Shown here: positions 5,701 to 59,205 of the stretch, in pieces
Numbering within the stretch: position 1 is the first letter of the stretch
Layout: every line of letters begins with the position of its first letter
Assembly (NCBI RefSeq): GCF_036588685.1
Contig: NC_086377.1
Coordinates: 5,394,001 to 5,458,000 of the forward strand
Length of the DNA stretch: 64,000 bases
Direction: 5' to 3'
DNA from: Mytilus trossulus
Taxonomy: Eukaryota
Program-made: the position numbers and the translations under genes
Notes under the pieces: model-generated
Told to the model about the DNA's origin: nothing
Databases searched by the model: none
What the model saw: the letters and a program-made list of their open reading frames with translations, nothing else

Positions 5701-7737
5701 TGGAGTTAAAATAAAAGGGACAAGTGAAGCTGGATGTAATGATGCAGCTTGATATGGTGAAAGAGATATATAAGAAGGTTAAGGTCAAGTTACAGTAAAT
5801 GGGCTATGTCACAGATTTCAGTAAAATTTGGCATACATCTCTGGCTCGATGAATTTCAACTGAAAATCGAAATATTAATGCATTTTTTTCAATTATCATT
5901 ATAAATATTACTGATTGAATTCTTACAAAATTGGTGAACATTTGTATAGAAAGCACATAAAATCGGCGAACCCCCTTATAAAATGTGTCTTAAAATCGCA
6001 AAATCTCTAATTATACTCCATAGATTTTTTTTTTAAAACTATATGTTGTTGATACATAAATTTCCGTTATAATGATGCAAAATAAAGATAGGGTCACCGA
6101 CTTCATTTTTACGGTATACATCATTATAAGTTGCGTTCCTTGTGGAAAAATCCATCAAAACGTCCAAATAATCGTAACGTTATCGCGTTGCAGGCCGTAA
6201 AACGTTGATTTTTGACGTTTTTCACTACCAACAAGGTAACAAATTGATAATTAGACTAAAAACGAAGTCGGTGACCCTATGAATATTTTATATCATTAAA
6301 ACAGAAATTTATGTGTCAACAATATATAGTTTTTTTTAAGAAAAGTCTATGGAGTAGAGATTTGACGATTTGAAGACAAATTTAAGAATTTTTTTGCCGA
6401 TTGTATGTGCTTTCTATACAAATATTCACCCATAATAACAAAAAATCAATCTGCAATTTTTCAGAAAATTAAAGAGATAAATGTATTATTTTTTCGATTT
6501 TCAGTTGTAGTTCAACGTGCCAAGGTGGTTTGCAAATGTTTAGAAAAATCTGCAACATAGCCCATTTACTGTTCCTTGACCTTAACCTGATTATGGAGTC
6601 GAATCTGGATATGGAGGTGAATGTGGATATGGAAGTGAATGTGGATATTGAGGTGAATCTTGATATGGATGTGAATCTGGATATGGAAGAGAATCTGGAT
6701 ATGGATGTGAATGTGGAGATGGAAGTAAATCTGGATATGGAGGTGAATGTGAATATGGAAGAAAATCTGGATATGGAGGTGAATGTGATATGGCAGAAAA
6801 TCTGGATATTGAGGTGAATGTGGATATGGAGGTGAATGTGGATATGGAGGTGAATCTGGATATGGAGGTGAATCTGGATATGGAAGAGAATCTGGATATG
6901 GAGGTGAATATGGTGATGGAAGTGAATCTGGATATGGAGGTGAATGTGGATATGGAATTAAATCTGGATATGGAGGTGAATGTGATACAGCAGAAAATAT
7001 GGATATGGAGGTGAATGTGGATATGGCGGTGAATGTGGATATGGAGGTGAATGTGGATATTGAGGTGAATGTGGATATGGAAGTGAATCTGGATATGGAA
7101 GTAAATCTGAATATGAAGGTGAATGTGGATACGGAGGTGAATCTGGATATGGAGGTGAATGTGGATATGGAGGTGAATGTTGATATGTAAGTAAATGTGA
7201 TTATGGAGGTGAATGTGGATATGGAGGTGAATATGGATATGGAGGTCAATATTGATATGGAGGTGAATGTTGATATGGAGGTGAATCTGGATTTGGAGGT
7301 GAATGTGGATATGGAAGTAAATCTGGATATGGAGGTGAATGTGGATATGGAGGTGAATCTGGATATGGAGGTGAATTTGAATATGGAGGTGAATGTGGAT
7401 ATGGAGCTGAATGAGGATATGGAAGTAAATCTGGATATGGAGGCGAATGTGGATATGAAAGTGAATCTGGATATGTAGGTGAATGTGAAGTAAATCTTGA
7501 TATGGAGGTGAATGTGGATATGGAAGGAAATGTGGATATGGAGGTGAATGCGGATATGGAGGTGAATATGTATATGGAAGTAAATCTAGATATGGAGGTG
7601 AATGTGGATATGAAAGTGAATCTGGATATGAAAGTGAATCTGCATATAGAGGTGAATCTTGATATGGAAGTTAATCTGGATATGGCGAAAGAAAATTCAA
7701 AAGTCTTTTCCTTTTATCTTTAAACATTATCTTCTAG
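5701..7737 (+). pseudogene. Pseudogene exon of a Gly/Tyr-rich repeat protein, (GYGGE[S/C])n hexapeptides, interrupted by a MITE
   Basis: Acceptor tttacag|5701. After excising 5783-6585, the frame runs GVKIKGTSEAGCNDAA*YGERDI*EG*PDYGVESGYGGECGY... into an 18-bp repeat array (GGATATGGAGGTGAATGT/TCT) ending GYGERKFK.... It has many GGA>TGA stops and frameshifts. Confidence 0.7.
5783..6581. mobile_element. Non-autonomous palindromic DNA transposon (MITE) with TTAA TSD, Kolobok-like
   Basis: TTAA at 5779-5782 and 6582-6585; termini GGTCAAG...CTTGACC; imperfect inverted repeats over ~300 bp (e.g. GGGTCACCGACTTC at ~6091 vs GAAGTCGGTGACCC at ~6265). GG..CC ends with TTAA fit Kolobok rather than piggyBac (CCC..GGG). 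Confidence 0.8.
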
Positions 7738-7869
7738 ACTTGCTCTTAATTATCCTCATTTAAAGCATCTTTATACTTACATGAGGTGTGACTTACTCGT
7801 GACTTGTGATTTAAAATATAATTGTAGACTTTAAGCACTCATAAACTGCTCTGAAATACTTTTATTAAT

Positions 7870-9296
7870 ATGCATATTTTTTTCGATTTTCAGTTGTAGT
7901 TCAACGTGCCAAGGTGGTTTGCAAATTTTTTGAAAAATCTGCAACATAGCCCATTTACTGTTCCTTGACCCTAACCTGATTATGGAGTCGAATCTGGATA
8001 TGGAGGTGAATGTGGATATGGAAGTGAATGTGGATATTGAGGTGAATATTGATATGGATGTGAATCTGGATATGGAAGAGAATTTGGATATGGATGTGAA
8101 TGTGGAGATGGAAGTAAATCTGGATATGGAGGTGAATGTGAATATGGAAGTAAATCTGGATATGGAGGTGAATGTGATATGGCAGAAAATCTGGATATTG
8201 AGGTGATTGTGGATATGAAGGTGAATGTGGATATGGAGGTGAATCTGGATTTGGAGGTGAATCTGGATATGGAGGTGAATCTGGATATGGAAGAGAATCT
8301 GGATATGGAAGAGAATCTGGATATGGAGGTGAATATGGTGATGGAAGTGAATCTGGATATGGAGGTGAATGTGGATATGGAATTAAATCTGGATATGGAG
8401 GTGAATGTGATACAGCAGAAAATATGGACATGGAGTTGAATGTGGATATGGAGGTGAATGTGGATATGGAGGTGAATGTGGATATGGCAGTGAAATTGGA
8501 TATGGAAGTAAATCTGAATATGAAGGTGAATGTGGATACGGAGGTGAATCTGGATATGGAGGCGAATGTGGATATGGAGGTGAATGTTGATATGGAAGTG
8601 AATGTGGATATGGAGGTGAATGTGGATATGGAGGTGAATATGGATATGGAGGTCAATCTTGATATGGAGGTGAATGTTGATATGGAGGTGAATCTGGATA
8701 TGGAGGTGAATGTGGATATGGAGGTGAATGTGGATATGAAAGTAAATCTGGATATGGAGGTGAATGTGGATATGGAGGTGAATCTGGATATGGAGGTGAA
8801 TTTGAATATGGCGGTGAATGTGGATATGGAGCTGAATGAGGATATGGAACTAAATCTGGATATGGAGGCGAATGTGGATATGAAAGTGAATCTGGATATG
8901 TAGGTGAATGTGAAGTAAATCTTGATATGGAGGTGAATGTGGATATGGAAGGAAATGTGGATATGGAGGTGAATGCGGATATGGAGGTGAATATGTATAT
9001 GGAAGTAAATCTAGATATGGAGGTGAATGTGGATATGAAAGTGAATCTGGATATGAAAGTGAATCTGCATATAGAGGTGAATCTGGATATGGAAGTTAAT
9101 CTGGATATGGCGAAAGAAAATTAAAAAGTCTTGTCCTTTTATCTTTAAACATTATCTTCTAGACTTGCTCTTAATTATCCTCATTTAAAGCATTTTTATA
9201 CTTACATGAGGTGTGACTTACTCGTGACTTGTGATTTAAAATATAATTGTAGACTTTAAGCACTCATAAACTGCTCTGAAATACTTTTATTAAAAT
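7870..9296 (+). repeat. ~1.4-kb tandem duplicate of ~6481-7869 (MITE right end + GYGGE[S/C] array + 3' flank)
   Basis: Near-identical sequence with the same frameshifts. Junction microhomology ATG(C/T)AT(T)ATTTTTT at ~6481, ~7870 and ~9296. Confidence 0.9.
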
Positions 9297-10139
9297 GCAT
9301 ATTTTTTTCCTTTTAAAAAAATGAAGACCAATAAGAGATTATTCGCAACTTCAAGATTATAAACCATTTCAATAATGTTCCATTGTTTTAGGCTTTTATA
9401 ATAACCGTAGAACTTGCATGAACTCAATGAGACAATATGTATTCTTTTAAAGTTTTATCATGCAATGATTGCAACACATTTCCTTTTATTTCAAATTATG
9501 ATGACTTTACATTCAGAGTTTCTCGCTGCATTGAAGACCTATTGGTGACTTTCTGCTGTTGTATGTTGTGTATGGTCGGGTTGTTGTATCTTTGACACAT
9601 TCCCTATTTCAATTCTCAATTTTATAGTAAAAATAATACACAGTCTATTAGCTTTAGTATCAAAATATAGTCAGTAAAAGTATGAGGAATTATTTTGATA
9701 ATTTTCACTTGTAAATATTATAATGTAGTGCTTAAAGTAATAATAAGATATAGGATAGTTTGTACATGTAAAGTGTCAACAAAGGGAGTTAACTCGTAGA
9801 TAATTATCGGCAACGCTTCGTCAGAAATATCTACATATGGAAGTATTACATTTGCGTATTACTCATCAAATATTTTAACTTTCTACTAGAGAACAAATGA
9901 TATGTTACATTCAAGGATATGATTTTCGTTCAATACTTCATAGTAAAAATGGTACAGTTTTAGCTCTTAAACAAGTTCTTTTGGAAAATTGCATCGTTAA
10001 TATTAACAGAAATGCAACCTATAAATAAGCTGTCTGACGGCAATTTGATTATTATATTCATGTGTACATATCTATCAGCTGTCTCACAGAAGTTTATCTT
10101 ATATCGTTATGTTTACATATAGTATTAGAATGCCGACAG

Positions 10140-12946: not shown

Positions 12947-14309
12947 GTGAGACGAGTGTCGTTAATTGGGTTGCAATATATTGACAATTCTTATTGGATG
13001 TTTTCTATACAGCTACCATAGCATCACATACGTTTGTATTGAAATTATATCTCAGAATTTGACAATAATCACCAAGTTTATATGTGCATTTCACAAAAAG
13101 ACAAGTTGAGGTTATAGTGACAGACATTGTTTGGACAAAAATGGTGAAACACACTAAATTAAATTGAGAAGTGATTGGGAGGTTTGTATTAATGTCAATA
13201 TTGCGACTGGATTGGTATAGCAATATCATGAAATATGAATCGAAAATCGTTATAATTAACACGCTTTTTTTTTAAATGCACTAAGAAATGCCCGCAATAT
13301 ATCTGAATTTACAGTTACTTATTATTTTTCTTTATATGACGTTAGTATCATGTTACAAACTGATATATTTTTCAAAATGGAAAACAAAATTACAAAAAGA
13401 AATATTTATCATTTTCTTTTATACTAAAAGCCAATCGCTCTTAAATATCCAAAACGTGTGTTTTTAACATCCTTATTTCGCAATACTTATTCTACGAGTA
13501 AATCAGAAAGTTTAATTTGCGGATTTGGCATAATTGATTTAATTCGTTTTTCCCCTACAATTTTGTTAATAACTCCCAGCATTCATCGTTTGTTGTTCGA
13601 AACAACCAGTCACTATTCAAATTGCAGGAGAGTAAAATATAAAAAAAACAAGTGTATTTACTCAGTAAGAGGTGTATTCTAAGGTTATATATAAAAAAAA
13701 TCGCACGTGCATATTTAATTATAAGAAAACATTAGCATTTCATTGGTCAACCAAATCGCTCTGATTGTTTTTAGATATGTGTAATAGTGATACGGCACAC
13801 GAGTTAATATAATCAAGTATAGATATTCGTACGGCCTTAAACAATGAACAAAGCCCATACCGCATAGTTAGCTATAAAAGGCTCCGAAATTACAATGTAA
13901 AATAAGTCAAAAGAGAAAACAGACGGCCGAATATATGTATTAAAAATGAACGAAAACCACACATAACATATAAACATACGCCAATCAATGAATTGCAAGC
14001 TTAAGTTGTTAAACTACAAAAGGATCATACATTAACCTCACTGTACATAGTCATGCAAGTTAAATGTTAACAATACTAATGTGAAAGAGTTTCTTTCTTG
14101 TTATATCGATTATCACGGATTGACTTTAAACTTTGAAATAAGATGTCCGTTAATCAGGAAAACTTGTCTTGGTACTATAATTCGTGTTTGGCACTGATAA
14201 TTTGAGAGAATAATGAGTGAATATGTTTTTATTTGAGTTTTGTTACCAGCTATATTAAAAAATAGTCAACTTTATAAAATCATAAACAGTACTGTATGGC
14301 TGTACAAAT

Positions 14310-16459
14310 TTAGTATGGAGTACTTTTTTTCCTATATCCACCGCCATTACGAGCGTATCCGTTTCCATATCCAACTCCATTTCCACCTCCATTTCCAGCT
14401 CCTCCGCCATTTCCATAACTACCATAACCAACTTTTGAACCTCCGTATCCATATCCGCCTACATGTCCATAACCACCATAATCTACTTTTGATCCTCCGT
14501 TTCCATTTCCGCCTCCATTTCCATTTCCGCCACCATTTCCATTTCCACCTCCATTTCCATTTCCGCCTCCATTTCCATTTCCGCCTCCATTTCCATTTCC
14601 GCCACCATTTCCATTTCCGCCTCCATTTCCATTTCCGCCTCCATTTCCATTTCCGCCTCCATTTCCATTTCCACCTCCATTTCCAGCTCTTCCGCCATAT
14701 CCTACTTTTGATCCTCTGTATCCGTATCCGCCTGTATGTCCATAACCACCATAATCTACTTTTGATCCTCCGTTTCCATTTACGCCTCCATTTCCATTTC
14801 CGCCACCATTTCCATTTCCACCTCCATTTCCATTTCCGCCTCCATTTCCATTTCCGCCACCATTTCCATTTCCTCCTCCGTTTCCATTTCCGCCTCCATT
14901 TCCATTTCCGCCACCATTTCCATTTCCACCTCCATTTCCATTTCCGCCTCCATTTCCATTTCCGCCACCATTTCCATTTCCGCCTCCATTTCCATTTCCA
15001 GCTCCTCCACCATTTGCAGCTCCTCCGCCATTTACATAACAAACAAAACCTCCTCCATTTCCATTTCCAACTCCATTTCCAGCACCACCGCCATTTCCAG
15101 CTCCTCCGCCATTTCCAGCTCCGCCGCCATATCCTACTTTTGATCCTCCGTATCCATATCCATCTCCATTTCCATAACCGCCATAACTATTTTTTGATCC
15201 TCCGTTGCCATTTCCGCCTCCATTTCCATTTCCACCTCCGTTGCCATTTCCGCCTCCATTTCCATTTCCGCCTCCATTTCCGTCTCCATTTCCATTTCCT
15301 CCTCCATTTCCATTTCCACCTCCGTTGCCATTTCCGCCTCCATTTCCGCCTCCATTTCCATTTCCGCCTCCATTTCCATTTCCGCCTCCATTTGCAGCAA
15401 CTCCGCCATTTCCAGCTCCTCCACCATTTCCAGCTCCTCCTCCTCCATTTCCAGCTCCGCCGCCATATCCTGCTTTTGATCCTCCATATCCATATCCGCC
15501 TCCATTTCCATAACTGCCATAACTATTTTTTGATCCTCCGTTTCCATTTCCGCCTCCATTTCCATTTCCGCCTGCATTTCCATTTCCGCCTGCATTTCCA
15601 TTTCCACCCCCATTTCCATTTCCACCTCCATTTCCAGCTCCTCCACCATTTCCAGCTCCTGCACCATTTCCGCCTGCATTTCCATTTCCACCCCCATTTC
15701 CATTTCCACCTCCATTTCCAGCTCCTCCACCATTTCCAGCTCCTCCACCATTTCCAGCTCCTCCACCATTTCCAGCTCCGCCGCCGTATCCATAACTACC
15801 ATAACTACCATAACCTAATTTTGATCCTCCATAGCCATATCCGCCCCCATTTCCATAACCACCATAACCTACTATTGATCCTCCGTTTCCATTTCCGCCT
15901 CCATTTCCATTTCCGCCTCCATTTCCAGTTCCGCCACCATTTCCATTTCCATTTCCATTTCCATTTCCACCTCCATTTCCATTTCCGCCCTCATTCCCAT
16001 TTACACCTCCATTTACAGCATCACCGCCATTTCCAGCTACACCACCATAACCTACTTTTGATCCTCCGTATCCATATCCGCCTCCACTTCCATAACCACC
16101 ATAACCTACTGTTGATCCTCCATTTCCATTTCCGCCTCCATTTACATTTCCGCCTCCATTTCCATTTCCGCCTCCATTTCCATTTCCGCCTCCATTTCCA
16201 TTTCCGCCTCCATTTCCATTTCCGCCTCCATTTCCATTTCCGCCTCCATCTCCATTTCCATTTCCACCTCCATTTACAGCTTCTCCGCCACTTCCAGCTC
16301 CTCCGCCATTTCCAGCTCCTCCGCCATTTCCAGCTCCGCCGCCATTTCCAGCTGCTTCGCCATAACCTACTTTTGATCCTCCGTATCCATAGCCGCTGCG
16401 ACCGCCATACTCAACAATATAACTGCCGCTGTGTCCATTCCCATATCCTGTGCCATAAC
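14310..16459 (-). CDS. Exon 2 of a secreted Gly/Asn/Tyr-rich structural protein (shematrin-like shell/periostracum-type glycine-rich protein)
   Basis: Uninterrupted 2.15-kb frame of (GNGNGG/GAGNGG)n blocks separated by seven GGSKVGYGGYG...GYGYGGSK blocks, ending YRKKSTPY*. Phase-1 acceptor ttcaag|16459; AATAAA at 14233-14228. Confidence 0.85.
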
Positions 16460-16962
16460 CTTGAAGTGTAAACGCTAAAATTTCAAATTTCAGGGAAACA
16501 TAGAAACGATTCATCAAAAACAGGCGCTGATGAATACATTTTAGACAAACGTTTTATGTTTGCTCACTTACATTACAAAAAATATTGTTTTAATGTTGTA
16601 AATACACATGATGCATGAAATCAAATTATCAGGATTATTGGTCCTGTTATACATGCTACTCCATAGAGTAACTTTTCTTGTTATGCAACAGACTATTAAT
16701 TAAGTTCGGACATTTAAAAAAAAGAATAACTATAATTTGATCGTGCATTCTTTTCCGTCTCCTACTCCTCTTTCAGACGTGTGTCTGGTGCAGATACAAA
16801 TTTAATCCTGGAATCTATGATAAGTTTATTTACAACCACTAGGTCGATGTCTCTGCTTGTTGCGTTTAATTATGTGCTGACATGAATTATCAATGATGTG
16901 GTCATATTTATAAATTAACTATTTACACTACTTTAAATCCTGGTATATATGATGAGCTTGTT

Positions 16963-17039
16963 TCTAGTGCCCCTCCCACTGACTCCATACTAAACGCTAT
17001 CACCTTTGTCGCTTCCATCATCATATCCTGGGCCATAAC
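16963..17039 (-). pseudogene. Relic pseudo-exon paralogous to the start of exon 2
   Basis: GYGPGYDDGSDKGDSV*YGVSGRG aligns to GYGTGYGNGHSGSYIVEYGGRSG. It is preceded by tttacg (broken acceptor) and has an in-frame TAG. Confidence 0.6.
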
Positions 17040-17079
17040 CGTAAATCATATATTACTGTGTTTAGTTTAAACATATTTA

Positions 17080-17410
17080 TTTATAGTGGATTGGGAAACA
17101 AGTTTTGCAACTTATATTAATCCCTTTCCACTTTGCAGGTGCGAGTTCTATTCTGCCTTGTAGCGGCATTAGCCTACACTTTTTCGAAATCAACAAGGGT
17201 GTATTTAACGTGCAAGAGATATGTCTCTCTCTCTTTTAACACGGGTCAGCCATTTATCGTCCCCTTCCGACGGACTATCATCGTTTCCTCAAGACCATAC
17301 TCGCAAATGGTGTCGAGGGAGAGCCGAAATTTGAGTTCCTTAAATTTTCTTCCCAAACGGGAATCGAACCAGGAACCTTTGTGATAGGAGTCCGATGCCA
17401 TTACTGCGTA
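17080..17410 (-). mobile_element. tRNA-derived SINE in the intron
   Basis: Minus-strand head ...GGCATCGGACTCCTATCACAAAGGTTCCTGGTTCGATTCCC with a B-box; body contains TGCACGTTAAA, resembling a MetaSINE-type core. Confidence 0.7.
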
Positions 17411-17466
17411 ATATGGTGGTAACATAAAAAAAAGTTTAAAACAAAAATACTGTAATATTCACAAAC

Positions 17467-17617
17467 CTCCACCACTACCGCCAGATCCAGATCCTCCGCC
17501 ACCGACACTTGCACCACCGGCGCCATACACAACACTGTACCCTCTACCGTTTCCATATGGGCCATGGCAAAATGTAGCTCCCACAAAACTCAACAGCAGA
17601 AAAGTAAACATAGTCAT
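17467..17617 (-). CDS. Exon 1 of the Gly-rich protein (signal peptide + Gly-rich start)
   Basis: ACCATG context; MTMFTFLLLSFVGATFC-HGPYGNGRGYSVVYGAGG.... Phase-1 donor GGAG|gtttgt at 17467/17466 matches the exon 2 acceptor; the spliced CDS is 2301 nt (766 aa). Confidence 0.8.
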
Positions 17618-17649
17618 GGTGACTGAGGTTTGACGATTGTAACTATGTG

Positions 17650-17690
17650 TGCTGATACGACGGCTGCGATCTGTATTTATACTCATTGGT
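17650..17690 (-). promoter_or_regulatory. Core promoter of the Gly-rich gene (TATA box + Inr-like site)
   Basis: TATAAATA at 17681-17674; TCAGC initiator-like site ~28 nt downstream (~17653); CCAAT at 17689-17685. Confidence 0.65.
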
Positions 17691-27300: not shown

Positions 27301-28429
27301 ACTACTTGTCATCATTGTTCTCCCAATGAAACAGGAAACAAATTGTGCACGTGTTATCTTAACTGAACAGCATAGTCTTCAAAACCTGCATGTAATCACG
27401 ACGGATACATATATTATTGTCATACTCAAGTCGAACTAAAACTAACACATCACAGACGGCAAACAGTTAAAAGAATTATCATAAGATAAACAATATACAA
27501 AATACAAAACAACAAGTAACCAGGAAATGACCACCATATATCGGTGATATCAGATGCTAATGTTAGAATAGCAGTAGTTGGTTATCAAGGTACCAGGGTA
27601 ATAATTTTTAAAGGGAATTAAAGTACAAATGGAAACGGCTGTATCAAAAATATACAAGTGGTGTTCCCATATAAAATAATACACTTGCTGTCATTATATC
27701 TATCGTAAATTAAGAAAAACAAAATTATCATAAAAGCTTGAAACAGCAAAAAGTTAAGACAGACAAAATATGTGCACTCTCAACTATCATGCCAAATAAT
27801 TCCACAACATATCATTTTGCATTTGTAGTACATGTAGTAACATCCCATCTCAATGTAAAAAGTCAATCTTAAAATTGGTTTGTTGGGTGGAATCATAAAA
27901 CAATACTTATACCAAATGTGAGACTTTGCCTTTGTGGTATGGAAACTTGTGGTATAATTTCAAAGAGATTCATACACCATTCCATGCGTTATTGTGAGTA
28001 AACTAGAAGAATGCTTATGTGTGCATTCCCTCCCCTCCCCCCCCCCCCCCCAATTCCTAATCTGTTTGGACCATAACGCCCAAAATAAATCCCAACATTT
28101 TTTGTGTCATAAATCTAAAGTTTAAATTTCATATATTTCTATTTACTTATACTAAAGTTAGGTTTATAGCCTTATGCTTTAAATAAATTCTAAATTTTGT
28201 TAACTGAAAAGTTATGAAAAGTATTAAAACATCAAATATATTGCATCTCATTCGGGTAAAACGATTGATTGAATTACAATACCGCTATTAATCGAGTATA
28301 ACACTTGTAATGATAGAATAACACTTGCAATGTAATATAAGATGACTTTTTAACATCGATTTACGACGATTATCAAATAATATAATACTATAAATGGTTT
28401 TTTTTATATAAAAAAAGATTAACAGTTTG

Positions 28430-29790
28430 CAGGTTATAATTCAACAACACTTACCGTTATCTTGATGATATTTTTTTCGTTAAATAATCAAGAATTTTCT
28501 AAATATACTGCTGCAATTAACCCCAAGGAACTTACTTTAAATAATTCATATTTATTCGGTAATAACTGTCCTCTCCTGGATTTAGATATTTCGGTTTTTA
28601 ACGGAAAACTCCACACTAAAATTTACGACAAAAGAGACGATTTGTTGTTCCCTATTGTTAATTTTCCATTTTTAGAGTGTGGTGTTCCTTTGGCACCATC
28701 CTACGGTGTTTACATTTCACAACTTGTTCGCTATGCCCGTGTCTGTTGTGACGTTTTTTATTTTAACGAACGCAAACTGTGTATTACTGGTAAATTATTA
28801 AACCAGGAATATTGTTACCATAAATTACTTAAAACCTTTACTATTTTTTTCCATAGATATAAAGATTTGGTTTTGAAGTTTTGTTGTACCGGTAGAAAAA
28901 TTATTTCAAACGGGATAGCACATGCTTGTTTTACGGAAATGTTGTTAACCGTATCCGGTCATTTAGAAATGATCCATGTAAACTTGTCGCTCCTTTAAAT
29001 AAACTTATTCTAAAAGGTTACCTATTCAACACAGTAATACGATCATTGAATTTTTTTTTTTGGTATAAATATTGATTTCGTTCTCAGTAAATTAAAAGCT
29101 AACTAAATATAACAAGTATTTTATAGACAAATGCATATTCATGGATCTACAGTCTGTCGATACCTGTAACTTGGCATTGCACAAGGTCGTGTTTTTTTCT
29201 GGCTGTTTATAAAGTATTTCTGAATCCTTTGGATGTTGGATATGCACGGATTGATAGTTTTTTTATTAGTTGTAAGTGGCTTTGAACTAACTGTCAGGTA
29301 ACTGCGAGTATTCTCAGATCTGCTCATTTGTGTCGGGATGTATAAGTACCCGTCCACGTCTACTTGTATTTTTGTCCATCTGACGAGTTAAGCCTTTTCA
29401 ACTGATTTGTATGGTTCGTTCTTATGTTGTACTGTTATACCACTGTCCCAGGTTAGGGGAAGGGTTGGGATCCCACTAACATGTTTAAGCCCGCCACATT
29501 AGTTATGTGCCTGTCCCAATTCAGGAGCCTGTAAATCAGTGGTTGTCGTTTGTGTGTGTGTTACGTATTTGTTTTTCGTTCATTTTCATTATATAAATAA
29601 GGCCGTTAGTTTTCTCGTTTATATTGTTTTACATTGTCTATTTGGGGCCTTTTTAGCTGACTATGCGGTATAGGCTTTGCTCATTGTTGAAGGGCGTACG
29701 GTGACCTATAGTTGTTAATGTCTGTGTCATCTTGCTCTTTTGTGGATAGTTGTCTCATTGGCCATCATACCACATTTTCTTTTTTATAGT
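28430..29790 (+). mobile_element. Penelope-like RT 3' fragment (second family) plus 3' non-coding repeat tail
   Basis: CPLLDLDISVFNGKLHTKIYDKRDD..FPIVNFPFL...PSYGVYISQLVRYARVC; the ORF ends without a C-terminal GIY-YIG. Duplicate at ~48230-49590. Confidence 0.75.
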
Positions 29791-30049: not shown

Positions 30050-30650
30050 AAATATGTGTTGTAGGGCAGACTTATTCTAATTGTTTATGCGTGAAATGAT
30101 ATGGGTTGTAGGACAGGCTCGTATGAGATCATTATGAGTAAAATGATATGTGGTGTAAGACAGGATCGTATGAGATCCTTATAGGTAAAATCATATGTCT
30201 TGTAGGGTAGGCTCGTATAAGATATGTATGGGTCCAATTGTATGTATTGTAGGGCAGGCTCGACTGAAATCATTATGAGTATAATGATGTGCGTTGTATG
30301 GTAGGCTCGTACGAGATCATTATGAGTAAAATTATATGTGTTGTAGGGCAGGCTAGTATGAGATCGTTATGGGTAAAATTATATGTGTTGTAGGACGGGG
30401 TCGTATGAGATGATTTGGGGTAAAATTATATGTGTTGTAGGACAGGCGCGTATGAGATCATTATGAGTAAAATTATATGTGATGTAGGGTAGGCTCCTAT
30501 GTTATCACTATGAGTAAAATGATATGTGTTGTAAGGCAGGCTAGTATGAGATCATTATGGGTAAAATTATATGTGTTGTAGGACAGACTCGTATGAGATC
30601 ACGATGGGTAAAATGATATGTTTTGTAGAACTGGTTCGTATGAGGTCATT
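30050..30650 (+). repeat. 47-bp tandem repeat array (~12 units)
   Basis: Approximate unit GTATGAGATCATTATGAGTAAAATGATATGTGTTGTAGGGCAGGCTC. Confidence 0.9.
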
Positions 30651-49864: not shown

Positions 49865-50465
49865 AAATATGTGTTGAAGGGAAGACTTATTCTAATTGTT
49901 TATGCGTGAAATCATATGGGTTGTAGGACAGGCTCGTATGAGATCATTATGAGTAAAATGATATGCGGTGTAGGACAGGATCGTATGAGATCCTTATAGG
50001 TAAAATTGTATGTGTTGTAGGGTAGGCTCGTATAAGATAATTACGGGTATAATTGTATGTGTTGTAGGGCAGGCTCGACTGAAATCATTATGAGTATAAT
50101 GATGTGCGTTGTAGGGTAGGCTCGTACGAGATCATTATGAGTAAAATGATATGTGTTGTAGGGCAGGCTAGTATGAGATCATTATGGGTAAAATTATATG
50201 TGTTGTAGGACGGGGTCGTATGAGATAATTAGGGGTAAAATTATATGTGTTGTAGGACAGGCTATTATGAGATCATTATGAGTAAAATTATATGTGTTGT
50301 AGGGTAGGCTCGTATGTTATCACTATGATTAAAATGATATGTGTTGTAAGGTAGGCTAGTATGAGATCATTATGGGTTAAATTATATGTGTTGTAGGACA
50401 GACTCGTATGAGATCACGATGGGTAAAATGATATGTTTTGTAGAACTGGTTCGTTTGAGGTCATT
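49865..50465 (+). repeat. 47-bp tandem repeat array (duplicate)
   Basis: Same unit as 30050-30650. Confidence 0.9.
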
Positions 50466-55522: not shown

Positions 55523-57095
55523 GAATCTATTTGGAACTCTTAATTTAATAGCTTCCTTGTCAGTAGTAACCCTCTATCAAGAAAATCATGATAGGAAATG
55601 CAAGCACAGGAATATCGTATCAATTGGGAGAAATATACCCCGTATGCAGGTGCTGCTGGAATGTTGCTACTTAGAATTAGAAAGTTCACAATTGGAAAGC
55701 TGACATCATCTCTTTTGTCGTAAAGTTTTGTTTTCAACCGATCCTCATTGTCAATTTCTAGATGAAAGTCAAGCTATGAAGCCGACTTAACTGTATCTGT
55801 AGTATCCTTTATCTCCAATTCGACTGGATATATGCGTTCCACATAGTCACCAAATTTTGAATTGTTAAGTGAAAGAACGTCATCTATATAGCGGAAAGAG
55901 TTAAAGGATATTGCTAACTTCTTATCTTTCTTCCTAAGAACTTCCTGCATGAAGTCAGCCTCATAATAATAAAGAAACAAGTCGGCAAGTAGAGGGGCAC
56001 AGTTTGTTCCAATTGGGATGCCGACAGTCGGTTGAAAAACACGTCCTCCGAACGTAACAAATATGTTGTCAATTAAGAAATCAAGCATCTTCATAATATC
56101 GGTTTCAGAGAATTTATTTTTGAATCAGAGTGATTATTTACAAAGTAAGATTTATCCCTTCCTAAGACTAGATACTTGTATCTACGTTGGCCATTCTTTT
56201 TTATGAAGCAAAGTAATACTAACTCTTTCAATTTGTCTTTCAGTTTGGAATGTGGAATACTTGTGTAAAGAGTAGAAAAGTCAAATGGTTTAATACTGTT
56301 AAAAGATGAAAGAGAGTTAAATTGTATGTACCCTAAAAGATCTTTGGAATTTTTAAGTATCGTATCCACATCTGATTCACCCAACCTCTAGAATAGGCAG
56401 TTTCACAATAACTTTGAAGCCCGTCTTTGATAGCTGATAAAATAGATGTTAATAATTTAGAAAGATGTTTCGTGGAGCACTTGGAAGACCCAGCAATATA
56501 CCGTTGTGTGTAAGGAAACTTATGTAGTTTAGGTATCCAATACAGTGATGGAAGATCCAGTTCTTCTTCTTTGGTTGAAATATCAAAAGAACAAAGAACA
56601 GACCTATGATTATCCAGGATTTTCTTTATGGTACCTGTCGTGAGGGTTAATGTTGAGTTTCCAAATGAATTGTCTATACCTAATTCGTTTATCAAGCAAT
56701 TAATGTAATTACTTTTACAGACAAAAACGATGTTATTTGGGGCTTTGTCTGCGGGGACAACAACATATTTATCATGGAGGTCGGATAGGAATTTAGCAAC
56801 ATTTGGGTCTTTAAAGATTGACGGAGCATGGGCATTGATTGACCAATTTAGTTTTTTTTAATTCTGATTTGTATCAACGACCTCACTGCCTTAATCCATT
56901 CGGATAGAGTGTCTACGTCTTCCTTCTTGCGCTTAGCCCATTGCCTGGCATAATCCGCGACTGAATCCATCAAAATTTTAAAGTTGGATTTCCAATTGAT
57001 TGATTTAGGCTCACGATATTTCGGACCTTTCGATAACACATTTCGTAGAGAAGTGTTATTAACAATGTTAAAGTGACCGGTAATAACGTGGCCAT
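55523..57095 (-). mobile_element. Naiad-type Penelope-like retroelement RT, longest copy, frameshifted
   Basis: KGPKYREP, LYWIPKLHK, FDFSTLYTSIPH, GIPIGTNCAPLLADLFL, FRYIDDVLSLNN, YDKRDD and AYGVYFSQLIRYS in RT order. Confidence 0.88.
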
Positions 57096-58289: not shown

Positions 58290-59205
58290 TACCCATAATG
58301 ATATCATACAAACCTGCCCTACAACAAATATAACTTTACGCATAATCATCTCATACGAGCCTGCCATACAATACATATCATTTTACCCAAAATGATCTCA
58401 TACGAGCCTGTCCTACAACGCATATAATTGTATGCATAATCATCACATACGAGCCTGTCCTACAACACATATAATTTTACTCATAATCATCTTATTCGAG
58501 CCATCCCTTCAACAAATATTGTTTTACCCATAATGATCTCATACGAGCCTGCCCGTCAACACGTATAATTTTACTCATAATCATTTTATACGAGTCTGCC
58601 CAACAACACATATATAATTGTTCTCTTAATGAGATCATACGAGCCTACACTACAACACATGTAATTTTACTCATAATGATCTAATACGAGCCAGTCCTAC
58701 AACACATAGAATTTTACCCATTATGATCTCAAAAGAGGGACGAAAGATACCAAAGGGACAGTAAAACTCGCAAATCTAAAACAAACTGACAACGCCATGG
58801 CTAAAAATGAAAAAGACAAACAGAAAAACAATAGTACACATGACACAACATAGAAAACTAAAGAATAAACAACACGAACCCCACCAAAAACTAGGGGTGA
58901 TCTCAGGTGCTCCGGAAGGGTAAGCAGATCTAGCCTATTCTACAACACGTATTATTTTACCCATAATAAACTCAAACGAACCTGTTCGACAACACATATC
59001 ATTTGACCCATAACGAGCTCATACGAACCTGTCCTACAACACATATCATTTTACTCATAATGATCACATACGAGCCTGCCCTACAATGCATATTATTTTA
59101 CCCATAATGATCTCATACGAGCCACTCCTACAACTCATATAATTTTACCCATAATGAAAGCATACGAGCCTACTCAACACCACATATCATTTCACACATA
59201 TACAA
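58290..59205 (-). repeat. 47-bp tandem array in reverse orientation, interrupted by a ~200-bp retroelement-tail insertion (58731-58930)
   Basis: Reverse-complement units CATACGAGCCTGTCCTACAACACATAT...; the insertion AAAAGAGGGACGAAAGATACC...GGTAAGCAGATC is related to 19300-19420 and 59235-59400. Confidence 0.85.

What the first reader, a model, noticed from the sequence alone, without database searches (positions are those of the whole stretch)
14310..17690. Complete gene for a block-copolymer Gly/Asn/Tyr secreted protein combining GN-type repeats with a shematrin-like basic tail
Seen: TATA/Inr, signal-peptide exon, phase-matched 1007-bp intron, 2.15-kb exon and poly(A) signal give a 766-aa protein, longer than and differing at the N-terminus from the 735-aa ORF-track entry. 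Seven Tyr/Lys-rich blocks (GGSKxxYGxYGxGGGYGYGGSKVGY) alternate with uncharged (GNGNGG)n/(GAGNGG)n blocks, and the protein ends RKKSTPY. Known: shematrins are Gly-rich shell proteins ending in RKKKY-type tails, and GN repeats occur in nacrein-like N66. Inference: a cross-link-block/spacer-block material protein (Tyr or DOPA plus Lys quinone tanning) for shell, periostracum or byssus, possibly uncharacterised.
Basis: partly seen in the sequence, partly recalled or inferred. Interest (0 to 1): 0.7.

Follow-up and report, generated by a model that had tools for sequence, protein, structure and literature searches.

The report
Mussel Gly/Asn/Tyr block-copolymer matrix protein
This is a real, spliced mussel gene for a 766-residue protein in which tyrosine-rich blocks alternate with glycine-asparagine spacers; it belongs to an unnamed gene family with relatives found in mussel shells, so it is likely a secreted building block of the shell's organic framework, though its tissue and cross-linking are untested.

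Summary
The gene model is right. Two exons give 766 aa, and public contigs skip the 1007-bp GT-AG intron in 3 of 6 runs laid (one study). Six full Tyr blocks (30 of 30 Tyr invariant) and one half block alternate with GN/GA spacers.

It fails the defining tests for shematrin, KRMP, nacrein and byssal TMP-1. It is instead the longest member seen of an unnamed mytilid family (at least 29 loci). Most members carry a six-cysteine domain, weakly alpha-defensin-like, that this gene lacks. Relatives were found by peptides in Mytilus and Perna nacre, which favours a shell-framework role (0.6) over byssus (0.2).

The scan noted other Gly-rich mussel clusters before, none at this place. The class is ordinary; the family is undescribed in my searches.

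The parts
17674..17681 (-). TATA box, 64 nt upstream of the ATG
   Evidence: Sequence; a TATA lies 54-65 nt upstream of the ATG in 22 of 26 family signal exons found
17467..17617 (-). Exon 1 coding part (151 nt, phase 1): signal-peptide-like start, HGPYG motif, short Gly/Ser tract
   Evidence: covered by contigs in X1, X20 and X21
17567..17617 (-). Predicted signal peptide, about 17 aa (cleavage site inferred)
   Evidence: Hydropathy; 67-81% DNA identity to 12 paralogous signal exons of the same clade; SignalP not available
16460..17466 (-). Intron, 1007 nt, GT..AG; holds multi-copy repeat DNA near 16780-16930 and 17060-17400
   Evidence: skipped by contig in X1, junction letters in X2 and X3; many unrelated contigs pile on the repeat parts
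14310..16459 (-). Exon 2 coding part (2150 nt) with all repeats and the stop
   Evidence: Open frame; 62 hexad-like units show 48 synonymous against 25 non-synonymous differences from consensus, pN/pS 0.18
16359..16457 (-). Exon-2 start (family motif GYGxGxxxxxxGxYxVxYG) and half Tyr block
   Evidence: 74-79% DNA identity to second exons of HGPYG-type paralogues; 9 of 16 identical to nacre Gly-rich protein 1
16044..16121 (-). Tyr block 1 (aa 164-189)
15807..15884 (-). Tyr block 2 (aa 243-268)
15462..15539 (-). Tyr block 3 (aa 358-383)
15126..15203 (-). Tyr block 4 (aa 470-495)
15039..15041 (-). Lone cysteine of the mature chain (Cys524, in GFVCYV)
   Evidence: the letters of this motif recur in contigs of 4 of 4 runs laid
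14694..14771 (-). Tyr block 5 (aa 614-639)
14421..14498 (-). Tyr block 6 (aa 705-730)
14310..14333 (-). Basic tail RKKSTPY and stop; resembles the family's RKGSTY ending
14228..14233 (-). Poly(A) signal AATAAA, 76 nt after the stop; the 40 nt around it match the two GN-type paralogues best
   Evidence: use as a poly(A) site not shown
16245..16534 (-). Minimal segment missing in runs X20 and X21 (old acceptor plus at least 72 codons); probable deletion allele with a new in-frame acceptor
   Evidence: repeat side of each junction only 16-25 letters

Best explanation
This spliced mussel gene encodes a 766-aa Gly/Asn/Tyr block protein that is likely secreted by the mantle into the shell's organic framework, where its tyrosine blocks would act as chitin-binding or cross-linking stickers and its Gly-Asn blocks as flexible spacers. 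Shown: gene structure, splicing, block architecture, purifying selection on the repeats, descent from a tandem family, and absence of the family's cysteine domain. From established knowledge: Gly/Tyr regions of KRMP-3 bind chitin and are proposed to be quinone-tanned, and NG-repeat domains of nacrein/N66 modulate calcium carbonate growth. Inferred: secretion, mantle expression, shell or periostracum location, tyrosine oxidation, and a network whose mesh is set by the 53-118 aa spacers. The gene likely arose by joining the 5' part of an HGPYG-type paralogue to the 3' part of a GN-type paralogue, dropping the cysteine domain between them (about 55%).
For: Splicing in 3 of 6 runs laid. 30 of 30 Tyr and 6 of 6 second Lys invariant in six blocks; pN/pS 0.42 in blocks and 0.18 in hexads. 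Family link independent of low complexity: TATA/5'UTR DNA is 72-79% identical to the 8 HGPYG/TGPYG-type paralogues aligned. A family member, nacre Gly-rich protein 1 (AKQ70859, P0034; its cluster representative scores E 1.3e-12 against the family profile), was found by one peptide in M. galloprovincialis nacre. It aligns with this gene's exon 1 at 42% over 55 columns. Two Perna viridis shell proteins show the same six-cysteine pattern (read by eye in supplement rows). GN-repeat transcripts were reported from M. edulis mantle. Chitin binding by Gly/Tyr regions; NG-domain effects. Mosaic signal: 5' non-coding identity 72-79% to the HGPYG type against 67% to the GN neighbour; 3'UTR score 49 and 48 to the two GN genes against 20-38 for 13 others, shuffle maxima 26-38.
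Against: No tissue is known for any run, and none is on record as RNA. This protein's own motifs were found in 0 of 3 shell-proteome supplements searched, although it offers 7 tryptic peptides of 7-30 aa; those studies used incomplete transcript databases. It lacks the cysteine domain that all three shell-found relatives carry, so their location need not be its own. The orthologue of the nacre protein was not found in this genome (best 57-59%). The similarity to P0034 outside the domain is short and Gly-rich (E 0.001 and 0.004). Mass and pI (61.7 kDa, 9.1) are close to byssal TMP-1 (56.5 kDa, 9.5). The tree fork that separates it from the GN neighbour has only 86/88 support, and one HGPYG-type 3'UTR also scores above its shuffles (38).
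Confidence: 0.6

Rival explanations
1. It is a byssal thread-matrix protein working like TMP-1: a Gly/Tyr/Asn-rich viscoelastic filler made in the foot and laid between collagen fibres.
For: Same three dominant residues, similar mass and pI. TMPs are described as a viscoelastic matrix whose Asn deamidates, and this protein has 140 Asn-Gly sites.
Against: The TMP-1 consensus GYGYGNYGYGY is absent: best match 7 of 11, no Asn-Tyr pair in the protein. The family relatives with a known location are from shell. The TMP sequence itself could not be obtained, so homology was not tested directly.
Confidence: 0.2
2. The Gly-Asn blocks are a timed charge switch rather than inert spacers: the protein is secreted basic, then Asn-Gly deamidation makes it a calcium-binding polyanion. 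This can hold together with the shell or the byssus reading.
For: 140 of 147 Asn are followed by Gly, the fastest-deamidating pair (established chemistry, recalled). Computed pI falls from 9.1 to 5.1 when 14 of the 140 sites convert. Deamidation is reported for mussel TMP, and NG repeats are reported to interact with calcium. The GN neighbour has 110 of 114.
Against: Asn-Gly pairs follow automatically from an alternating GN repeat, so the count is no sign of selection for deamidation. Rates in cold seawater and in a cross-linked solid are unknown. No measurement exists for this protein.
Confidence: 0.2
3. It serves another extracellular material (hinge ligament, larval shell or cuticle, egg coat, gill support).
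For: Gly-rich low-complexity proteins occur in many animal materials (PMC4944945 passages). Some depth differences between studies are large, which would fit a narrow tissue or stage, but contig depth is a poor measure.
Against: No positive evidence; located relatives are in adult nacre and myostracum.
Confidence: 0.12
4. It is a surface-defence protein: a Gly-rich cationic member of a family built round a defensin-like domain.
For: The family domain's best structural matches in both searches are alpha-defensins (Z 3.4-3.8, rmsd 1.3-1.8 over 31-33 residues; Foldseek E 0.92 and above).
Against: This gene lacks the domain. Net charge is only +9 over 748 aa. The fold matches are below the tools' own trust levels, and the model has pLDDT 69.
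Confidence: 0.06

Closest known systems
Nacre Gly-rich protein 1 / GRS-rich protein of Mytilus galloprovincialis (AKQ70859, P0034; PMC4517812) and Perna viridis Unigene240 and Unigene35334 (PMC6641155)
   Same: Same unnamed family. P0034 shares the signal-peptide type and the GYG...Y-x-V-E-YG motif; all are secreted-type and Gly-rich; Unigene240 has GGN repeats.
   Different: They carry the six-cysteine domain; P0034 is 158 aa. This protein lacks the domain, is 766 aa and has six Tyr blocks with GN hexad spacers.
Shematrins (Pinctada)
   Same: Signal peptide, Gly-rich, basic Tyr-ending tail, tandem gene cluster. One family relative is auto-named 'shematrin-like protein 3'.
   Different: Gly runs are followed mostly by Asn (52 of 106), not by a hydrophobic residue; the tail matches none of the five listed signatures. 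Described as Pinctada-lineage genes.
KRMPs (Pinctada)
   Same: Gly/Tyr region, the part shown to bind chitin in KRMP-3; basic Tyr-ending tail.
   Different: No Lys/Trp domain after the signal peptide (no Trp at all); six times larger than the roughly 10 kDa KRMPs.
Nacrein / N66 NG-repeat domain; N16/pearlin GN repeat
   Same: Long Gly-Asn repeats (136 GN pairs).
   Different: No carbonic anhydrase or other Pfam domain; no Gly-(Asp/Asn/Glu)-Asn unit (0). Recalled and untested: N16/pearlin pairs a cysteine-rich part with GN repeats, as the neighbouring gene does.
Byssal thread matrix protein TMP-1 (Mytilus)
   Same: Gly/Tyr/Asn-rich, basic, about 60 kDa, deamidation-prone.
   Different: TMP-1 consensus repeat absent; here Tyr and Asn are segregated into separate blocks.

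Membership tests
Shematrin | C-terminal RKKKY, RRKKY, RRRKY, IRRKK or PRKKY signature (PMC3896809 section 16) | tested here: not met
   Ends RKKSTPY; 0 of 5 signatures in the last 15 aa
Shematrin | Gly runs followed by Tyr or a hydrophobic residue as the dominant repeat | tested here: not met
   Of 106 Gly runs: Asn 52, Ala 18, Ser 14, Tyr 12, Val 4, other 6
Shematrin | Signal peptide and Gly-rich body | tested here: met
   Hydrophobic N-terminus, 55% Gly; signal peptide inferred without SignalP
Shematrin | Mantle expression and prismatic-layer location | not testable with these tools
   Runs are coded, with no tissue
KRMP | Lys/Trp-rich domain directly after the signal peptide | tested here: not met
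   No Trp; no Lys in the first 50 aa
KRMP | Gly/Tyr-rich region | tested here: met
   Six blocks with 5 Tyr each
Nacrein / N66 | Carbonic anhydrase domain | tested here: not met
   No Pfam family at E up to 1 on the exon-2 frame; exon 1 is 50 aa
Nacrein / N66 | Gly-X-Asn repeat with X = Asp, Asn or Glu | tested here: not met
   0 such triplets; the unit is GNGNGG (45 copies) and GAGNGG (14)
Byssal TMP-1 | Consensus repeat GYGYGNYGYGY | tested here: not met
   Best window 7 of 11; no Asn-Tyr pair
Byssal TMP-1 | Gly/Tyr/Asn-rich, basic, about 56 kDa | tested here: met
   Gly 56%, Asn 20%, Tyr 6.6%, 61.7 kDa, pI 9.1 against 56.5 kDa, pI 9.5
Byssal TMP-1 | Made in the foot core gland; sequence homology to TMP-1 | not testable with these tools
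   Primary paper not held; no TMP sequence obtained
Unnamed mytilid six-cysteine Gly-rich family (includes nacre Gly-rich protein 1) | Homologous TATA/5'UTR/signal exon | tested here: met
   E down to 8e-36; non-coding identity 68-79% to 12 paralogues
Unnamed mytilid six-cysteine Gly-rich family (includes nacre Gly-rich protein 1) | Domain WCxC-x(3-4)-C-x10-C-x(11-12)-CC | tested here: not met
   No remnant in the window: best protein-HMM E 0.44, no DNA-HMM hit under E 2. Four other cluster genes lack it too
Unnamed mytilid six-cysteine Gly-rich family (includes nacre Gly-rich protein 1) | Short Lys/Tyr C-terminal tail | tested here: met
   RKKSTPY against RKGSTY, GKKSY, GKGYY in paralogues
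Alpha-defensin fold (for the paralogues' domain only) | Three-stranded disulfide fold with CxC...C...C...CC spacing | tested here: inconclusive
   Six invariant Cys; alpha-defensins rank first in both searches but Z is at most 3.8 and E at least 0.92; no PDB sequence hit; disulfide pairing not checked

The most novel reading that the evidence does not exclude
The protein is a self-acidifying shell-matrix precursor: secreted as a basic, chitin-anchored, tyrosine-cross-linked gel, it turns by spontaneous deamidation of up to 140 Asn-Gly sites into an Asp-rich calcium-binding polyanion. That would explain how uncharged GN repeats act on mineral. It would belong to an overlooked mussel family, of about 30 genes, that co-opted a defensin-like fold for shell building.
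Probability: 0.15. Interest if true: 0.75.

Novelty: new variant of a known kind. Interest (0 to 1): 0.4.

Why it matters
As a class, secreted Gly-rich low-complexity proteins of bivalves are common and expected. The value here is narrower. First, it ties scattered 'no homologue' entries of two shell proteomes to one gene family with a shared domain and promoter, which can now be named and tested. Second, it offers a very regular natural sticker-spacer polymer as a material template. Third, it is an extreme test case for whether Asn-Gly deamidation gives GN repeats their effect on calcium carbonate. Fourth, the probable deletion allele shows how such genes can lose blocks and a splice site yet stay in frame.

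Tried and rejected
Pfam on the exon-2 frame and two paralogue frames: 0 families in 3 of 3. On 16 domain copies: 1 weak hit, E 0.36. Single-sequence homologue searches with two domain-bearing frames found nothing; only the alignment query worked. The full 766-aa protein was never searched against the protein collections, so a public gene model for it is not excluded. The exon-2 ATG frame is not in the collection as an exact sequence. PDB sequence search: 0. ESM Atlas: no usable hit for the domain. AlphaFold on aa 243-495, single sequence: pLDDT 31, uninformative, so a polyglycine-II bundle idea stays untested. X4 covered neither exon 1 nor the junction. Motif searches of paper full texts found no mussel paper. 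Shell-proteome supplements had none of this protein's own motifs. The GN isotig alignments in PMC3896809 were in files without readable text, so identity with isotigs 26479, 26749 or 48548 is open. Rejected: shematrin, KRMP, nacrein and TMP-1 membership; a hidden cysteine-domain exon in the intron; the 735-aa unspliced frame as the product (TTG start in the intron, no signal peptide); plain alternative splicing as the cause of the X20/X21 junction, because the intron contig itself runs into the same repeat letters.
Full report
1. The observation. The minus strand has a TATA box at 17681, an ATG at 17617, a 151-nt first coding exon, a 1007-nt GT..AG intron (17466-16460) and a 2150-nt second exon ending at 14310. 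Of six donor/acceptor pairs that kept frame, only this one has GT and AG ends; it gives 766 aa. One AATAAA lies 76 nt after the stop. The 735-aa entry is the exon-2 frame read from an intronic TTG. I laid 6 of 21 listed runs. X1 has a contig that skips exactly 1007 nt, and X2 and X3 pass from exon 2 into exon-1 letters; these three are one study. X20 and X21 show another junction (section 4). X4 covers neither. No run is on record as RNA and none has a tissue, but an intron-skipping contig with GT..AG ends is spliced RNA.

2. The protein. After about 17-18 signal-like residues, the chain (748 aa, 61.7 kDa, pI 9.1) is 56% Gly, 20% Asn, 6.6% Tyr and 1.7% Lys. Six 26-aa blocks of consensus GGSKVGYGGYGNGGGYGYGGSKVGYG and one half block alternate with spacers of 53-118 aa made of GNGNGG and GAGNGG. 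All 30 Tyr positions and the second Lys are invariant. Differences from consensus are biased to synonymous sites: pN/pS 0.42 in blocks, 0.18 in 62 hexad-like units, a few of which overlap blocks. Of 49 Tyr, 48 lie in blocks or termini, against 10 of 147 Asn (the boundaries were drawn by me). There is no Trp and one Cys in the mature chain. Pfam finds nothing, and a single-sequence fold is uninformative.

3. The family. The genome has 8 myticin matches, so it is a mytilid mussel. The promoter/exon-1 DNA gives 21 matches, which I read as 16 first-exon-like loci including this one and 5 second-exon matches. In C5:5.17-5.50 Mb I count by hand 15 genes with an intact-looking signal exon. Ten are followed by a six-cysteine domain; five, including this gene, are not. 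The domain has 30 matches in the genome, two of them halves of one split copy, a lower bound. Further clusters at C5:5.65-5.74 and 12.6-12.7 Mb encode signal peptide, Gly-rich part, domain and Gly-rich tail. A 16-sequence profile finds 20 proteins, 18 named and all Mytilus, and 15 representatives among 1.84 billion. One of these clusters holds 'nacre Gly-rich protein 1' of M. galloprovincialis, identified by one peptide in acid-soluble nacre with no homologue given. Two Perna viridis shell proteins, also listed without homologue, show the same cysteine pattern by eye. A predicted model of the domain (pLDDT 69) ranks alpha-defensins first in two searches, but weakly.

The gene looks mosaic. Its TATA/5'UTR is 72-79% identical to 8 HGPYG/TGPYG-type genes and 67% to the GN-type neighbour at C5:5493304, and its exon-2 start matches HGPYG-type second exons. 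Its GN hexads, half Tyr block and the 40 nt round the poly(A) signal match the GN neighbour and a broken GN gene at C5:5472.7 kb best. A crossover between Gly-rich tracts would join these halves and drop the domain. Against this: tree support is only 86/88 (22 of 26 signal exons, those with a TATA hit), one HGPYG-type 3'UTR also beats its shuffles, and the tail resembles the HGPYG-type RKGSTY. I give it about 55%.

4. A second form. In X20 and X21 (one study) exon 1 is matched with no differences over the parts covered, at contig depth 1333-1620, but continues into GN-repeat letters. A low-depth intron contig (6-8) leaves the window at 16535 into the same letters, and 16399-16534 has no cover. 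The simplest reading is a deletion of at least 16534-16245 that removes the acceptor and at least 72 codons and leaves a new AG in front of a repeat. All 18 possible landing places are in frame, and the longest product would be 694 aa. Caveat: the repeat side is only 16-25 letters, under the tool's 31-letter bridging rule, and the runs may be another species.

5. How it likely works. The Gly/Tyr region of KRMP-3 binds chitin and is proposed to be quinone-tanned. NG-repeat domains are reported to modulate calcification. By analogy the Tyr blocks would anchor and cross-link, and the spacers would give a loose hydrated mesh in the shell's organic framework (0.6). A byssal TMP-like role is the main rival (0.2): composition, mass and pI fit but the TMP-1 consensus does not. 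Separately, 140 of 147 Asn precede Gly, and converting a tenth would drop the pI to 5.1. Deamidation is reported for TMP, but the Asn-Gly count follows from the repeat itself, so a functional switch is only a hypothesis (0.2). Results against my reading: this protein's motifs are in 0 of 3 shell-proteome supplements, it lacks the domain of the shell-found relatives, and the nacre protein's orthologue was not found in this genome.

6. Known or new. It fails defining tests for shematrin, KRMP, nacrein/N66 and TMP-1, while working like a blend of them. I found no description of this protein or of the family in 10 full-text searches; the library lacks most subscription journals. GN-repeat isotigs from M. 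edulis mantle were reported and may be fragments of this gene or its neighbour; their alignments were not readable.

What I saw of each paper. PMC3896809: passages, section 16, supplements 14 and 15, and a supplement search that skipped several files. PMC6641155 and PMC4517812: passages and supplement rows. PMC5854119: supplement search only. PMC4498902, PMC6599672, PMC9999432, PMC6474901, PMC12817120, PMC4759782, PMC8194122, PMC4944945, PMC13198611, PMC6359903: passages. Sagert and Waite 2009, DeMartini 2017 and McDougall 2013: not held, recalled only. The subfamily labels HGPYG-type, TKGGY-type and GN-type are mine. The N16/pearlin resemblance, Asn-Gly deamidation speed and defensin disulfide pairing are recalled.

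7. Earlier scan notes. None at this place or for the domain sequence. Several note other Gly-rich secreted clusters in this genome (8 of 72 shown), which shows the class is common here.

Verdict: a real gene, ordinary in class, unusual in regularity, inside an apparently undescribed shell-linked family. New variant of a known kind; interest 0.4.

Noticed in passing
G000:C5:5.17-5.74 Mb, 12.6-12.7 Mb, 3.08 and 4.10 Mb; C10:71.1 Mb (L009-L071): An unnamed family of at least 29 loci with a six-cysteine domain, mostly flanked by Gly-rich tracts. No Pfam family; named homologues only in Mytilus; weak alpha-defensin fold match; members in two shell proteomes. Probably more interesting than the gene in hand.
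   Followed up: partly
L035:3335-5304 (G000:C5:5491335-5493304, minus): Intact-looking 493-aa paralogue joining GAGNGGGANG repeats, the cysteine domain and long GN repeats with half Tyr blocks; architecture recalls N16/pearlin (recalled, untested).
   Followed up: partly
G000:C5:5472663-5473790 (plus): Broken GN-type paralogue with a stop inside the cysteine domain and frameshifts.
   Followed up: partly
window 6469-9330 (plus): Two tandem copies of about 1.4 kb (93% identical) of a frameshifted YGGECG/YGGESG array, each preceded by a short Cys stretch that recalls a thrombospondin-1 motif (motif recalled). A decayed Gly/Tyr gene or an assembly-damaged repeat.
   Followed up: partly
G000:C5:5501907-5504550 (plus): Exon-1-like fragment followed by a stop-ridden array of a GGGSGYGGWIWRCILVR-like unit; probable pseudogene.
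   Followed up: partly
P0034 / P0025 against G000: The orthologue of nacre Gly-rich protein 1 was not found in this assembly (best 57-59%); possible presence-absence variation or a search miss.
   Followed up: no
L070:5898-6161; P0017, P0018, P0020, P0026: A divergent branch pairs the same cysteine domain with Pro/Met/Gln/Tyr-rich instead of Gly-rich tracts.
   Followed up: no
window 30085-30650, 49900-50465, 58290-59200: Arrays of one 47-bp unit at several places, likely part of a dispersed mobile element.
   Followed up: no
window 28423-28998 and 56333-56857: ORF fragments that look like retroelement reverse-transcriptase remnants (resemblance recalled, not tested).
   Followed up: no
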